From: Candidatus Saccharimonadota bacterium
Lineage (GTDB): Bacteria > Patescibacteriota > Saccharimonadia > Saccharimonadales > Saccharimonadaceae
Direction of reading: 5' to 3'
NCBI RefSeq assembly: GCF_025273655.1
Contig: NZ_CP045921.1
Coordinates: forward strand, 690,001-722,000
DNA length: 32,000 bases
A program made the position numbers and the translations under genes. Within the stretch, counting starts at the first letter, position 1, and each line of letters begins with the position of its first letter. This document shows, in pieces, positions 11,042 to 13,927 of this stretch. The notes beneath the pieces were generated by a model. That model was not told the DNA's origin, did not search any database, and was given only the letters and a program-made list of their open reading frames with translations.

Positions 11042-13927
11042 CTACTTTACGATGCTCACCAGCCGACCAGGGACATAAATCACCTTGGTCGGTTTTTTGT
11101 CGCCCAGGAACTGCTGCACATGCTCGTCGGCTAGAGCCGCTGACTTGACGTCTTCTTCTGGCGTATCGACAGCCAGCTCCAGCTTGGCGCGTAATTTGCC
11201 GTTTACCTGGACGATAATCATCATCGTGTCACTGATGATCTTTGACTCGTCCCATGACGGCCACTGCTCGAAATCAAGCTGCGTGTCGCGACCAAGCTGC
11301 TCCCATAGCTCCGCAGTCATGTGCGGCGCAAACGGCTGCAAGAGTGTCACGAGCGTCTCCAGAGGTTGTTGCCAATCGGCCGTAAAACCTTCGGTTTTGA
11401 GCTTGTAGAGATCATTGACATACTCCATGAGCGCAGCGATAGCCGTATTGAAACTGAGACGACGGATGTCGTCGGTTACTTTTTTAGTGGTTGCATGCGT
11501 CAAGGTATCTAGTTTTTTCGAGTCGGCACCCCCTGCTTTGTCGCTTTCATCGTATTCTTGCACTAGCGTCCAGACGCGATTGAGAAAACGGTATACGCCA
11601 GCGATGCCTTTGCTGCTCCAGTTGCTGTTTTCGTTGATAGGTCCGAGGAATAGCTCGAATGTACGAAGGGCATCGGCACCATAGCCAGCATCTATCACTT
11701 CCAGCGGATCGACCACGTTGCCTTTGCTCTTGCTCATCTTGGTGCCGTCTTCGGCTTGGATAAGACCGTGGTAGACAAGCTGTTTGACCGGCTCTTTCTC
11801 CGGCACGAGTCCCATATCATAGAACACATGATTCCAGAATCGCACGTACAGAAGGTGCGCGACCGCGTGATCCCCACCTATATACATATCTACCGGACTC
11901 CAATAGTCAGCCTTGGCTGGGTCCCATGCTTGCTTGGCGTTCTGCGAGTCGGTGTAACGCAGGAGGTACCAGCTACTGCAGGCATAGCCATCCATAGTAT
12001 CGGTCTCGCGCTTGGCTGGCTTGCCGCAGGTCGGACAAGTGGTGTTTACCCAGTCAGTCTCGCGAGCGAGTACGGATTTGCCATCGCCTTTTGGCGCATA
12101 ATCCGCTACTTCCGGCAGCACCACCGGCAGCTGATCGGCTGGTACTGGCACCGCACCATGCTCGTCACAGTGAATAATCGGTATTGGCGCGCCCCAGTAG
12201 CGCTGACGGCTGATAAGCCAATCACGCATCTTGTAGATGACCTTACTTCGTCCGACGCCCTGCTGCTCGAGCCATGCCACGATCTCTTCGCGCGCTTCGC
12301 TGGTGTGCGTGCCGTCAAATGCTCCAGAGTTAACAAGTAGACCTTCGCGCACATCGGTGTCAATCAGCTTACCCGCCAAATAATCACGCCAGCCCTTGGC
12401 GTGGGTTGACCAGTTGATCATATCTACCACTTCGCTCTTTGGCGCCCAGATCACACCATGCAACCCTTGTTCTATCTCACTGTCAACCTGCACTGTCTTA
12501 TCTATCACGACTTCATAATATGCACCCCATGTTTGATGATTACGGTTTTTGATAGTTCTTTGGGCATGAACTCCGCTAAATGGTGCTACCTGGCGAATGC
12601 TAATGATGTTTGGATAGCCAACCTCTTCGAGTATTTCGCGACGAAGTGCCATCTCGATTGACTCATCTTCTTCATCAACGCCACCGCCTACGAAGTGGAC
12701 ATCCTCTTGGGTATCACTTACTTTTTCAACTTGCAGTAAATAGTTTCCCTCACCATCGGTAATAATTGCATCGACAACCTGCTTTTTGCGAGTAGGCCAG
12801 TCTTCACGAGGTGCAAGTTTTCCGCTCAGTACCTCGTATTCTGCCACTACCTGCACGATAGGCAACTCGTACTTCGTAGCAAATGCGAAGTCACGCTCGT
12901 CGTGCGCCGGCACAGCCATGACTGCTCCCGTACCGTAGCCACCAAGTACGTAATCCGCTACCCAGATAGGGATTTTTTCGCCGTTGACTGGATTTACCGC
13001 ATAACTACCCGTCCATACACCAGTTTTTTCTTTGCCTTCCGACTGACGCTCAATCTCTGACTTTTTGACTGCATCATCTATGTATTTTTCGACATTTTCA
13101 CGCATCTCGTCTGTCGCGAGACTCCTCGCGAGTGGATGCTCCGGCGCCAGTACGAGGAATGTCGCACCAAACAACGTGTCTGGACGCGTAGAAAAGACCG
13201 TAATAAGTTCATCACGACCTTCGACCGCGAAATCAATCTCAGCACCCTGTGACCGTCCGATCCAGTTGGTCTGGGCTGTCTTGATTTTCTCTGGCCAGTT
13301 GAGGTCTGGGATTTCCTCGAGCAGTTCATCTGCGTAGTCTGTAATCTTGAAGAACCATTGCTTCATAGACTTTTTCTCGACCTCTGAGCCGCAGCGCCAA
13401 CACTTGCCGCCCTCTACCTGCTCATTGGCGAGCACTGTTTTGTCGACTGGACACCACCACTGGAGCGATTCTTTCTGATAGGCTAGGTCACGCTCAAACA
13501 TCTGCGTGAACACCCACTGTGTCCATTTGTAATACTCAGGATCGGTTGTGTTGATCTCGCGGGACCAGTCAATACTCGCGCCCACGCGCGTAAGCTGGTT
13601 CTTGAAGTTAGCGATGTTTTGCTTGGTGACAACCGCGGGCGCCGTGCCAGTTTTGATCGCGTAGTTCTCCGCCGGCAAGCCAAAACTATCCCAGCCCATA
13701 GGGTATACGACATTATGGCCAAGTGCACGGCGAAAACGCGCGACTGCGTCTACGATAGAGTGCTCGAAGAAGTGCCCAGTATGCATACCTGCACCAGACG
13801 GGTACGGGAACATTCCAGTTACATAATATTTCGGCTTGTCATCGAAATCTTTGGCCCGATACCGTGCATCATCGGCCCAAATCTGCTGCCATTTCGGCTC
13901 TGTCTCTGTCGGATTGTAGCGTCTCAT
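11042..13927 (-). CDS. leuS: leucyl-tRNA synthetase with an internal Nudix-like insertion
   Basis: Class I motifs [12 protein letters not shown] (HIGH-type) and [8 protein letters not shown]. CP1 editing-domain strings ([27 protein letters not shown]). The track start 13933 is a GTG; ATG 13927 (MRRYNPTE...) has TATACT (minus, 13936-13941) 8 nt upstream. 961-963 aa, versus the ~820-880 I would expect for bacterial LeuRS. Confidence 0.95.
   Translation of the reverse strand: [961 protein letters not shown]
12374..12787 (-). other. Nudix-fold-like domain inserted in frame within leuS (aa ~383-520)
   Basis: Contains [23 protein letters not shown] (nt 12614-12682), an exact fit to Gx5Ex7REUxEExGU. 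Preceded by a beta-rich segment ([19 protein letters not shown]), as in Nudix folds. Hand-counted GC is ~45% versus ~54-58% in flanking leuS sequence. Boundaries are approximate. Confidence 0.7.

What the first reader, a model, noticed from the sequence alone, without database searches (positions are those of the whole stretch)
12374..12787. Nudix-fold module nested inside the editing region of leucyl-tRNA synthetase
The leuS ORF is uninterrupted and has normal class I motifs. Between [27 protein letters not shown] and [11 protein letters not shown], however, there are ~165 aa; as I recall E. coli LeuRS, these two strings are only ~20 aa apart. The extra ~140 aa (aa ~383-520) contain [23 protein letters not shown] (nt 12614-12682), an exact fit to the Nudix box Gx5Ex7REUxEExGU. 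By hand count the insert is 161/360 = ~45% GC (12421-12780). Flanking leuS sequence is 104/180 = ~58% (12181-12360) and 98/180 = ~54% (12841-13020), which points to later acquisition. aaRSs generate aminoacyl-adenylates and Ap4A, both nucleoside-diphosphate-X type compounds. A cis Nudix hydrolase sitting in the proofreading domain could therefore clear mis-activated adenylates or Ap4A (inference). I am not aware of a described LeuRS-Nudix fusion.
Basis: partly seen in the sequence, partly recalled or inferred. Interest (0 to 1): 0.8.

Follow-up and report, generated by a model that had tools for sequence, protein, structure and literature searches.

The report
Nudix hydrolase nested inside leucyl-tRNA synthetase
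The leucine-charging enzyme of this tiny parasitic bacterium carries a complete, apparently working nucleotide-cleaving (Nudix) enzyme inside its proofreading domain; I found no published description of this swappable add-on, which recurs in many ultra-small microbes, and its job is still unknown.

Summary
leuS (window 11042-13933, minus strand, 963 aa) is 100% identical to the LeuRS of Candidatus Mycosynbacter amalyticus (Saccharibacteria). It carries a ~153-167 aa insert (aa 364-530) in a surface loop of the CP1 editing domain, where Thermus LeuRS has 16 residues.

The insert is a bona fide Nudix domain:
- PF00293 scores 42-48 bits against a cutoff of 21.
- The Nudix box is exact.
- The AF2 model has pLDDT 93.
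- 432 solved structures, all those listed Nudix proteins, match the fold at E <= 0.001.

It is not unique to this genome. About 100 of the 120 closest LeuRS clusters and ~29 of the 80 closest species-representative loci carry it. The catalytic glutamates are nearly invariant and dN/dS is about 0.1.

It behaves as an exchangeable cassette. A conspecific strain (~97% DNA identity) lacks it. LeuRS backbones 97-98% identical carry Nudix variants only 22% identical.

The same Nudix clade also occurs:
- in 2-3 copies at other LeuRS sites;
- nested in a ProRS whose closest relatives are DPANN archaeal;
- as free-standing genes beside leuS or proS.

The substrate is unresolved. Ap4A-type by-products of aminoacyl-tRNA synthetases (aaRS) are the leading guess, and this is inference only. 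I found no published description.

The parts
11042..13933 (-). leuS, bacterial-type leucyl-tRNA synthetase. 963 aa from GTG at 13933; the NCBI model starts at ATG 13927 and gives 961 aa.
   Evidence: ORF. NCBIfam TIGR00396 leuS_bact scores 1014.7 bits against a cutoff of 548.4. 100% identical to P0038, 'leucine--tRNA ligase [Candidatus Mycosynbacter amalyticus]'. The AF2 model matches LeuRS structures with TM 0.73-0.86.
13772..13783 (-). HIGH-type class I signature (HTGH, aa 51-54)
11726..11740 (-). KMSKS signature (aa 732-736)
12833..13267 (-). N-terminal three quarters of the CP1 editing domain (aa 223-367). Includes the Thr-rich STRPDT motif (aa 248-253) and AHDERD (aa 343-348).
   Evidence: PF13603 scores 220.9 bits, matching profile positions 2-144 of 185 and then breaking off. 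T249, R250, D252, T253, H344, D345, R347 and D348 are invariant in 84 homologues.
12344..12844 (-). The inserted segment (aa 364-530), made of linker, Nudix domain and linker. The indel against the insert-less conspecific allele is 459 nt at 12359-12817.
   Evidence: Anchor positions. DNA alignment with L081. It replaces T. thermophilus residues 364-379. AF2 pLDDT is 82-95 in the full-length model and 93 for the insert alone.
12428..12784 (-). Nudix domain core (aa 384-502, Pfam envelope)
   Evidence: PF00293. Secondary structure is beta strands, then the catalytic helix aa 426-438, a beta hairpin and two C-terminal helices. Foldseek gives 432 PDB hits at E <= 0.001, and all 50 listed are Nudix proteins.
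12614..12682 (-). Nudix box [23 protein letters not shown] (aa 418-440). Catalytic residues are R432, E433, E436 and E437.
   Evidence: Exact pattern fit. E433, E436, E437 and G439 are invariant in 30 LeuRS inserts. They are kept in 26-28 of 28 sequences across nested, stand-alone and ProRS-nested members.
12233..12343 (-). Resumption of CP1 after the insert ([11 protein letters not shown]..., helix aa 544-557, strand aa 561-567)
   Evidence: Aligns to T. thermophilus residues 380-449; AF2 secondary structure.
9227..9724 (-). Separate free-standing Nudix gene (165 aa) directly after nusB. It belongs to a different Nudix family and is not part of the insert clade; listed for contrast.
   Evidence: ORF. 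Only generic NCBIfam Nudix hits. It scores 24 bits against the insert HMM, versus 236 bits for the insert itself. The nusB-nudix-rnc order is conserved in relatives.

Best explanation
The segment is a real, independently folding and most probably catalytically active Nudix pyrophosphohydrolase domain. It is nested in a surface loop of the CP1 editing domain of an otherwise complete bacterial LeuRS, so it is a domain inside a domain that is itself inserted in the Rossmann fold.

It belongs to a distinct Nudix clade that travels with aminoacyl-tRNA synthetase genes in ultra-small symbionts. Members are:
- nested in LeuRS of Saccharibacteria and other CPR bacteria, at two or more sites and in one to three copies;
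- nested in a ProRS whose relatives are DPANN archaeal;
- encoded as a free gene next to leuS or proS.

In LeuRS it is an accessory, strain-variable cassette. It is gained, lost and replaced by homologous recombination in the flanking leuS sequence.

Proposed mechanism (inference): the tethered hydrolase acts on a nucleotide that any aaRS makes or meets. The most likely candidates are Ap4A-type dinucleoside polyphosphates, formed when enzyme-bound aminoacyl-adenylate reacts with ATP. The hydrolase would destroy them at their source, while aminoacylation and CP1 editing proceed as usual.

Graded confidence:
- nested genuine Nudix domain: ~0.97
- catalytically active: ~0.8
- functionally coupled to aaRS rather than a passenger: ~0.6
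- substrate is Ap4A-like: ~0.3
For: Shown:
- Domain identity: the Pfam NUDIX hit is above cutoff and the Nudix box is exact.
- Fold: the model is confident and Nudix-like.
- Insertion point: a 16-residue loop of Thermus LeuRS.
- LeuRS is intact: HIGH, KMSKS, and the Thr-rich and Asp editing residues are all present and conserved.
- Not an artefact: the protein is identical to one on a 1.08-Mb contig of a named organism. About 100 independent homologue clusters share the architecture, as do ~29 of 80 species-representative loci.
- Selection: the REx2EE glutamates are invariant or nearly so. dN/dS in the insert is ~0.09-0.10 with saturated dS.
- Accessory cassette, presence/absence: conspecific L081 is 96-98% DNA-identical in the flanks but lacks 459 nt, and identity drops to 86-88% for ~450 nt on each side.
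- Accessory cassette, replacement: insert and flank identities are uncorrelated (r = 0.006 over 5151 pairs). At least 7 insert types occupy the same site. P0083 and P0048 have flanks 97.6% identical and inserts 22% identical.
- Link to aaRS, long hits: every long hit checked (9) to the insert among 1.84 billion representatives is a LeuRS with 1-3 Nudix domains.
- Link to aaRS, neighbourhood: 5 of 8 free-standing members examined lie within two genes of an aaRS gene. My rough expectation by chance is ~10%.
- Link to aaRS, ProRS: the Nudix nested in ProRS scores 103.5 bits against the LeuRS-insert HMM, versus 24.7 bits for a generic Nudix.

Bearing on Ap4A:
- aaRS are the main Ap4A source and Nudix enzymes cleave Ap4A (PMC10148737 and PMC7705103).
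- The association spans class I and class II synthetases, which points to shared adenylate chemistry.
- The insert is strongly acidic (median net charge -12, pI 4.8). That fits a small-molecule substrate better than an RNA substrate.
Against: - No enzymatic data exist.
- No Nudix subfamily could be assigned. The best sequence and fold neighbours are a mixture: NudI, uncharacterised MutT/Nudix proteins, YmfB, Aq_158 Ap4A hydrolase, ADP-ribose pyrophosphatases, RppH and AvrM14.
- LeuRS and ProRS are not known as the strongest Ap4A producers (my recollection, unverified).
- The domain is dispensable within a species, so it is not needed for LeuRS function.
- Some variants have lost the Nudix-box Arg (ME, SE or AE instead of RE) or have RK instead of RE.
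- Gene adjacency could reflect how the cassette moves rather than what it does.
- I had no model coordinates, so the distance between the Nudix site and the synthetic site, the editing site or the tRNA ends is unknown.
Confidence: 0.55

Rival explanations
1. Passenger house-cleaning enzyme. The Nudix domain is an ordinary nucleotide-sanitising or salvage hydrolase that uses a structurally permissive loop of an essential, constitutively expressed protein as a landing pad. There is no mechanistic coupling to leucylation, editing or tRNA.
For: - The same CP1 loop holds unrelated inserts in other lineages: a SAM-methyltransferase-like domain in L065 and an unknown ~150-aa domain in L009, L022, L025 and L075.
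- A second CP1 site holds ASCH or alpha/beta-hydrolase domains.
- The insert is dispensable in a conspecific strain.
- The closest solved relatives include NTP house-cleaning enzymes such as NudI and MutT-like proteins.
- Adjacency of free-standing copies to leuS could simply mark the donor or acceptor site of recombination.
Against: - The clade is remarkably faithful to aaRS hosts. Every long hit checked is a LeuRS, some with up to three copies, and another member sits in ProRS of a different domain of life.
- Free-standing members lie near proS as well as leuS.
- The genome already has a separate generic Nudix gene 3.5 kb away.
Confidence: 0.25
2. tRNA- or RNA-directed Nudix. Held on the domain that handles the acceptor end, it removes a pyrophosphate-containing group from tRNA. 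Candidates are a 5'-triphosphate or 5' cap (NAD, Ap4A) on unprocessed tRNA, or a 3'-CCA pyrophosphate or ADP-ribose adduct added by a toxin. It would act as a repair or counter-defence module.
For: - CP1 binds the tRNA 3' end (established knowledge).
- Profile hits include the decapping effector AvrM14 (35.7 bits, aligned almost end to end) and RppH (30 bits).
- Presence/absence polymorphism, cassette swapping and multiple copies resemble loci under conflict-driven selection.
- The clade is shared by CPR and DPANN episymbionts.
Against: - The insert is strongly acidic, with no sign of an RNA-binding surface at the level of net charge.
- RppH NCBIfam models score far below cutoff, 19.8 against 118.
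- The PADLOC hit is only a generic Nudix match.
- In ProRS the domain sits between the anticodon-binding and C-terminal domains, not at an acceptor-end-handling domain.
Confidence: 0.13
3. Non-catalytic module. The Nudix fold serves as a nucleotide sensor or structural spacer that regulates or stabilises LeuRS.
For: - Some variants lack the box Arg, or have RK for RE.
- Catalytically dead Nudix proteins that bind Ap4A exist, for example CFIm25/NUDT21 as described in PMC7705103.
Against: - In this window the box is canonical.
- The three glutamates are nearly invariant across 28 very diverse members, and dN/dS is ~0.1.
Confidence: 0.05
4. Artefact or selfish element: a misassembly, an intein, or an insertion sequence fragment.
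For: Lower GC than the flanking leuS sequence.
Against: - The segment is in frame and is found in ~100 independent assemblies, including a long contig of a named, co-cultured organism.
- No Pfam family other than the synthetase domains and Nudix families matches the protein.
- There are no junction repeats and no Rfam intron.
- It is under purifying selection.
Confidence: 0.01

Closest known systems
Canonical bacterial LeuRS with CP1 editing domain (T. thermophilus 1H3N/2BYT/2BTE; E. coli 4AQ7/4ARC)
   Same: Same overall fold, with TM 0.73-0.86. It passes the leuS_bact equivalog model. HIGH, KMSKS, the Thr-rich motif and the editing Asp are conserved.
   Different: The 16-residue loop of Thermus (residues 364-379) is replaced by a 167-aa Nudix module. 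None of the LeuRS structures matched in the PDB searches has an extra domain here.
Free-standing small Nudix hydrolases (NudI 6DT3; E. faecalis MutT/Nudix 2AZW; N. europaea 2B0V; YmfB; A. aeolicus Ap4A hydrolase 3I7U)
   Same: Nudix box, alpha/beta/alpha fold and size of ~140-150 aa.
   Different: Only 12-26% identity. No curated NCBIfam Nudix family reaches its cutoff. The clade has its own conserved features: an N-terminal PRED-x-P-x-x-ER-type linker, K462-x2-N465, W496, and a C-terminal W-x2-Y helix. It is nested in a synthetase rather than free.
Nudix Ap4A hydrolases (RppH/NudH/IalA, NUDT2, lupin 1F3Y)
   Same: A plausible functional analogy: aaRS make Ap4A and Nudix enzymes cleave it asymmetrically (PMC10148737, PMC7705103). 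There is weak profile and fold similarity.
   Different: Similarity is no closer than to other Nudix subfamilies. RppH models score far below cutoff. No activity data exist.
Synthetases carrying an embedded accessory enzyme, e.g. NCBIfam NF040702 'isoleucine--tRNA ligase, N-acetyltransferase domain-containing'
   Same: A class I editing-type synthetase with an extra catalytic domain, already recognised as a named exception model (listed).
   Different: A different synthetase and a different inserted fold. No corresponding model or name exists for LeuRS-Nudix; the source databases simply call it 'leucine--tRNA ligase'.
ProRS with nested Nudix in DPANN-like archaea (found here: P0226-P0230, locus L096)
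   Same: Same Nudix clade, 103.5 bits against the LeuRS-insert HMM. It is also accompanied by a free-standing copy two genes upstream.
   Different: The host is a class II archaeal-type ProRS. The insertion lies between the anticodon-binding domain and the ProRS-C_1 domain, not in an editing domain. It is rare, in 5 of the 120 closest ProRS clusters.

Membership tests
Nudix hydrolase superfamily (PF00293) | Nudix box GX5EX7REUXEEXGU | tested here: met
   [23 protein letters not shown], aa 418-440, fits exactly.
Nudix hydrolase superfamily (PF00293) | Profile HMM score above Pfam's gathering threshold | tested here: met
   42.3 bits on the whole protein and 47.9 bits on the insert, against 21.1.
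Nudix hydrolase superfamily (PF00293) | alpha/beta/alpha sandwich fold with the box on a loop-helix-loop | tested here: met
   AF2 insert model has pLDDT 93. The helix at aa 426-438 carries REx2EE. Foldseek finds 432 PDB matches at E <= 0.001, best TM 0.66/0.74, and all 50 listed are Nudix proteins.
Nudix hydrolase superfamily (PF00293) | Divalent-cation-dependent hydrolysis of a nucleoside diphosphate linked to X | not testable with these tools
   Only indirect evidence: the catalytic Glu residues are conserved and dN/dS is ~0.1.
Bacterial leucyl-tRNA synthetase (TIGR00396 leuS_bact) | Equivalog model above its curated cutoff | tested here: met
   1014.7 bits against 548.4, matched in two stretches that are split by the insert.
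Bacterial leucyl-tRNA synthetase (TIGR00396 leuS_bact) | Class I signatures and a CP1 editing site (Thr-rich motif, conserved Asp) | tested here: met
   HTGH, KMSKS, STRPDT and AHD345ERD are present and invariant in 84 homologues. Activity itself was not tested.
Nudix Ap4A/ApnA hydrolase subfamily | Closer sequence or fold similarity to characterised ApnA hydrolases than to other Nudix subfamilies | tested here: inconclusive
   Aq_158 (3I7U) has TM 0.56/0.68 and lupin 1F3Y scores 26 bits. NudI and 2AZW rank higher.
RppH-type RNA pyrophosphohydrolase | NCBIfam RppH equivalog above cutoff | tested here: not met
   19.8 bits against a cutoff of 118. The insert is acidic, net charge -9 here and a median of -12.
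NudI nucleoside triphosphatase | NCBIfam NF012016 above cutoff | tested here: not met
   24.1 bits against a cutoff of 95, although NudI is the best PDB sequence hit.
Intein / mobile element | Intein (Hint) or endonuclease domains, splice-junction residues, terminal repeats, or intron RNA | tested here: not met
   Pfam matches only the synthetase domains and Nudix families. The only repeats are short chance-level pairs that do not flank the insert. No Rfam hit.

The most novel reading that the evidence does not exclude
A dedicated 'synthetase-associated Nudix' clade, shared by CPR bacteria and DPANN archaea, is a horizontally exchanged accessory module that works in cis on the synthetase's own nucleic-acid or nucleotide ligands. 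It might strip a 5'-triphosphate or cap, or a toxin-added 3' pyrophosphate or ADP-ribose, from tRNA held by the enzyme. Alternatively it might destroy synthetase-made alarmones. Its cassette-like diversity (7 or more variants on near-identical LeuRS backbones, 1-3 copies, presence/absence within a species) would then reflect an ongoing conflict with hosts, phages or competitors. That would be a new layer of quality control or defence built into the translation apparatus of episymbionts.
Probability: 0.2. Interest if true: 0.9.

Novelty: new variant of a known kind. Interest (0 to 1): 0.72.

Why it matters
Aminoacyl-tRNA synthetases are among the best-studied enzymes, and CP1 of LeuRS is a drug target (benzoxaboroles).

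A recent survey of domain insertions reported that the LeuRS editing domain is always an insert and never a host (PMC13114784). Here it hosts a second enzyme, giving a three-level nested architecture. This is not a one-off. It recurs across many CPR lineages, in multiple copies and at multiple sites. The same Nudix clade also appears in ProRS of DPANN-like archaea and as operon-like neighbours of leuS and proS.

That combination of fusion and gene neighbourhood predicts a so far unknown functional link between Nudix chemistry and aminoacylation in ultra-small symbionts. The organism is in co-culture (Ca. Mycosynbacter amalyticus on Gordonia amarae; PMC11880426). Natural insert-bearing and insert-less alleles that differ by only ~3% exist. 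The hypothesis is therefore directly testable.

The cassette-like exchange of an internal domain within an essential gene is also an unusual mode of protein evolution.

Tried and rejected
1. Subfamily and substrate assignment. I tried phmmer and a profile against PDB sequences, NCBIfam, Foldseek against PDB and PADLOC. All gave only generic Nudix matches and no family cutoff was reached.

2. Literature. Six searches combining LeuRS, aaRS, Nudix, Saccharibacteria, Patescibacteria, CPR and domain insertion found nothing describing this architecture.

3. Mobile-element and artefact ideas were rejected. There are no junction repeats and no Rfam family. No Pfam family other than the synthetase domains and Nudix families matches. 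Many independent assemblies carry the architecture.

4. Is the insert a duplicate of the neighbouring nusB-adjacent Nudix gene? Rejected: that gene scores only 24 bits against the insert HMM.

5. Which allele, the insert-bearing window or insert-less L081, is the recombinant? Regional identities to other relatives did not resolve the direction.

6. dN/dS could only be bounded, because synonymous sites are saturated between the available relatives.

7. The first protein search, with the insert plus anchors, returned only short fragments. Full-length homologues appeared only when I used the full-length query.

8. Geometry of the Nudix site relative to the editing site, synthetic site and tRNA could not be examined. 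The structure tool returns no coordinates or inter-domain (PAE) confidence.

9. The neighbour of stand-alone P0201 is a 208-aa class I synthetase C-terminal fragment, MetRS-like around KMSK and only 30% identical to LeuRS. Its nature was left unresolved.

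
Full report
**What is in the window**

The finding lies inside one uninterrupted ORF on the minus strand, 11042-13933, 963 aa from a GTG start.
- It is 100% identical to P0038, named 'leucine--tRNA ligase [Candidatus Mycosynbacter amalyticus]', seen on a 1.08-Mb contig. 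That organism is a co-cultured Saccharibacteria parasite of Gordonia amarae (PMC11880426).
- It passes the NCBIfam bacterial leuS equivalog, 1014.7 bits against a cutoff of 548.4.
- It has HTGH at aa 51-54 and KMSKS at aa 732-736.
- The CP1 editing residues (STRPDT at aa 248-253, AHD345ERD) are invariant in 84 homologues.
- An AF2 model (mean pLDDT 85.8) superposes on Thermus, E. coli and Neisseria LeuRS with TM 0.73-0.86.

**Check of the observation**

- In T. thermophilus LeuRS the same strings align to residues 300-363 and 380-449. The window replaces a 16-residue loop (364-379) of the editing domain.
- The Pfam editing-domain model PF13603 matches aa 223-367 and stops at profile position 144 of 185.
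- The Nudix box is at nt 12614-12682 and fits the consensus exactly.
- PF00293 scores 42.3 bits on the whole protein and 47.9 bits (E = 1.7e-12) on the insert, against a cutoff of 21.1.
However, the insert's 45.7% GC is only ~1 SD below the window mean of 49.4%. It is the leuS flanks that are GC-rich.
- A GC3 deficit of the insert is also seen in distant lineages. Examples are 0.31 against 0.53 in L001 and 0.28 against 0.54 in L005. It is therefore a property of the cassette, not a sign of recent arrival here.

**The fold**

- In the full-length model the insert has pLDDT 82-95. Its elements run in the order beta strands, helix aa 426-438 carrying REx2EE, a beta hairpin, and two C-terminal helices.
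- Modelled alone with 30 homologues, it reaches pLDDT 93 and pTM 0.86.
- Foldseek finds 432 PDB matches at E <= 0.001, and all 50 listed are Nudix proteins. The best are 2B0V, 2AZW (TM 0.66/0.74), NudI 6DT3, YmfB, A. aeolicus Ap4A hydrolase, and ADP-ribose pyrophosphatases.
- A profile of the inserts against PDB sequences ranks NudI (37.9 bits), the decapping effector AvrM14 (35.7 bits), 2AZW and RppH (30 bits).
- No NCBIfam Nudix equivalog comes near its cutoff.
- The superfamily is certain; the subfamily and substrate are not.

**Distribution**

- About 100 of the 120 best LeuRS clusters in the 5.8-billion-protein set carry PF00293 within LeuRS. About 20 (806-809 aa) do not.
- Among the 80 closest loci from GTDB species-representative genomes, ~29 have a Nudix at this site. 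Their record titles name Saccharibacteria, Moraniibacteriota, Parcubacteria, Berkelbacteria, Paceibacterota, generic Patescibacteria, and a few MAGs labelled Bacilli, Muribaculaceae or Bdellovibrionales.
- The Saccharibacteria MAGs from animal-gut and rumen samples in that set (for example those titled Nanosyncoccus) lack it.
- The source databases name these proteins only 'leucine--tRNA ligase'. I found no paper describing the architecture.
- A 2026 survey states that PF13603 is always an insert and never a host (PMC13114784). Here it is a host.

**Selection**

- In 30 diverse LeuRS inserts, G417, G418, E433, E436, E437, G439, N465 and W496 are invariant. R431, R432 and K462 are conserved at 90% or more.
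- Across 28 still more diverse members (nested, free-standing, and ProRS-nested), E433 is kept in 27, E436 in 26, and E437 in all 28.
- Between relatives L093 and L094 the insert has dN 0.19 and dS ~2.1, giving dN/dS ~0.09. The N-terminal LeuRS part gives 0.02. Selection is purifying, though more relaxed than in the core.
- A minority of variants lack the box Arg (ME, SE or AE), or have RK instead of RE.

**Cassette behaviour**

- Locus L081 encodes P0046 (808 aa). Over ~10 kb of conserved synteny it is 96.4-97.6% DNA-identical to the window, which is conspecific level. It lacks 459 nt, corresponding to window 12359-12817.
- Within leuS, DNA identity is 96-99% at both ends. It falls to 86-88% for ~450 nt on each side of the indel. 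At protein level this is 98.5% and 98.7% at the ends against 91.9% and 93.3% centrally.
- That is the footprint of a recombination tract of roughly 1.3 kb that carried the CP1-plus-insert (or CP1-minus-insert) allele. The direction could not be resolved.
- Over 5151 pairs of insert-bearing homologues, flank identity and insert identity are uncorrelated (r = 0.006). At least seven insert types (<40% identity) occupy the same site.
- P0083 and P0048 have flanks 97.6% identical but inserts 22% identical.
- There are no repeats at the junctions and no intron-like RNA.

**The clade and its company**

A full HMMER scan of 1.84 billion representatives with the insert gave only 70 hits at E <= 0.001.

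All nine long hits examined are LeuRS with one to three Nudix domains. The sites are:
- this loop, sometimes with two copies in tandem;
- between the catalytic core and CP1;
- after CP1.

Short hits are genuine free-standing proteins of 160-190 aa. They share the clade's N-terminal PRED-like linker and C-terminal W-x2-Y helix. Their neighbourhoods are as follows.
- P0178 lies directly upstream of an insert-bearing leuS.
- P0186 lies 3 nt upstream of an insert-less leuS with a complete PF13603 match.
- P0183 lies one gene upstream of a ProRS that itself has a nested Nudix.
- P0190 lies two genes from a ProRS.
- P0201 lies next to a class I synthetase fragment.
- P0199, P0197 and P0179 are not near a synthetase.

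That makes five of eight within two genes of an aaRS gene. My back-of-envelope chance expectation is ~10%.

The ProRS-nested domain scores 103.5 bits against the LeuRS-insert HMM. The window's own nusB-adjacent Nudix scores 24.7 bits. Relatives of that ProRS are named Nanoarchaeota or Woesearchaeota, and 5 of its 120 closest clusters carry the Nudix.

Free-standing P0178 is closest (44% identity) to a nested cassette type from a different LeuRS backbone. Free and nested forms therefore interchange.

**Interpretation**

Shown by the data:
- a real, folded, selected Nudix domain;
- nested in CP1 of an intact LeuRS;
- accessory and recombinationally mobile;
- a member of a clade that keeps company with synthetases of both classes in CPR and DPANN organisms.

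Inferred:
- It is catalytically active.
- Its function is tied to something common to synthetases.

The most economical candidate is cleavage of Ap4A-type dinucleoside polyphosphates. aaRS generate these from enzyme-bound adenylate plus ATP, and Nudix enzymes cleave them (PMC10148737, PMC7705103). The strongly acidic character of the insert (median net charge -12) favours a small-molecule substrate over an RNA substrate.

Acyl-adenylates are not nucleoside-diphosphate-X compounds (established Nudix chemistry). The clade is also not confined to editing domains.

Rivals:
- A passenger house-cleaning enzyme exploiting a permissive loop. The loop and a second CP1 site also accept methyltransferase-like, ASCH, alpha/beta-hydrolase and unknown domains.
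- A tRNA-end repair or decapping module. This is supported only by weak AvrM14 and RppH similarity and by the conflict-like population pattern.
- A non-catalytic sensor.

An artefact is excluded.

**Verdict**

The structural interpretation is supported. The functional interpretation is open.

As far as I can find, the architecture is undescribed in the literature, although it is abundant in sequence databases. It is a new variant of known kinds, namely an aaRS with an accessory domain and a Nudix hydrolase. It has unexpected features: double nesting, cassette exchange within an essential gene, and recurrence across synthetase classes and domains of life. It is also experimentally tractable.

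Noticed in passing
window 9227-9724 (-), overlapping the 3' end of nusB (9702-10160): A separate free-standing 165-aa Nudix gene (box GHIEEGETAQQTAKREIGEEAGL) lies in a conserved nusB-nudix-rnc-rpsP order. It belongs to a different Nudix family from the LeuRS insert, scoring 24 bits against the insert HMM. It gives only generic MutT/RppH-like matches, all below cutoff.
   Followed up: partly
window ~11980-13330 (central part of leuS) compared with locus L081: leuS is mosaic relative to a conspecific strain. Identity is 96-99% at both gene ends and 86-88% in a ~1.3-kb central tract surrounding the indel. This indicates allelic exchange by homologous recombination. Which strain is the recombinant is unresolved.
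   Followed up: partly
relatives P0070, P0073, P0074, P0084, P0091, P0095, P0106, P0140 and P0060, P0083, P0089; site equivalent to window aa ~235-245 (nt ~13200-13230): A second insertion hot spot at the start of CP1 carries an ASCH domain (PF04266, ~90-120 aa) or an alpha/beta-hydrolase (PF12697/PF06821, ~170 aa) in some Saccharibacteria LeuRS. These occur in addition to the Nudix. P0083 and P0066 are 97% identical but differ by the hydrolase.
   Followed up: partly
loci L065 (3001-6594), L009, L022, L025, L075: same CP1 loop as the Nudix site: Other lineages fill the same loop with different modules. A Doudnabacteria LeuRS (~1200 aa) has a SAM-methyltransferase-like domain (ILELGSGRGLD...). 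Saccharibacteria, Anaerolineae and Armatimonadetes MAGs share a ~150-aa insert of unknown family.
   Followed up: no
P0160, P0171, P0172, P0174, P0185, P0192 (representative-library hits): These LeuRS proteins have two or three Nudix domains each. The domains sit in tandem in this loop, between the catalytic core and CP1, and after CP1.
   Followed up: partly
locus L096 (2762-4693) and P0226-P0230: An archaeal-type ProRS, whose relatives are named Nanoarchaeota or Woesearchaeota, has a Nudix of the same clade nested between the anticodon-binding and C-terminal domains. A free-standing copy lies two genes upstream. The clade is therefore shared by CPR bacteria and DPANN archaea.
   Followed up: partly
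window 10160-11042 (between nusB and leuS); ORF 10347-11030 (+): This intergenic stretch holds a hypothetical ORF opposite to leuS. Its counterpart varies greatly among close relatives (91, 100, 143 and 183 aa) and has no Pfam hit on record. It is a hypervariable spot right next to the variable leuS.
   Followed up: no
window 13967-15010 (-) and 15077-16165 (-): Two tandem ~350-aa hypothetical proteins lie upstream of leuS. Each has an N-terminal hydrophobic segment. Synteny is conserved in relatives but no Pfam family is on record, so they may be paralogous surface proteins.
   Followed up: no
P0005 (288 aa, 124-kb contig) and P0009 (244 aa, 40-kb contig): In some MAGs the called LeuRS-Nudix gene product ends inside or just after the Nudix domain, in sequence that looks out of frame. 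This could be a frameshift, pseudogenisation, or an assembly error. It was not examined.
   Followed up: no
leuS inserts in window, L001, L003, L005, L093, L094: The Nudix cassette has consistently lower third-position GC than the rest of leuS in several lineages (for example 0.44 against 0.60 here and 0.28 against 0.54 in L005). This is unexplained. It could reflect repeated import from AT-richer donors or different codon selection.
   Followed up: partly
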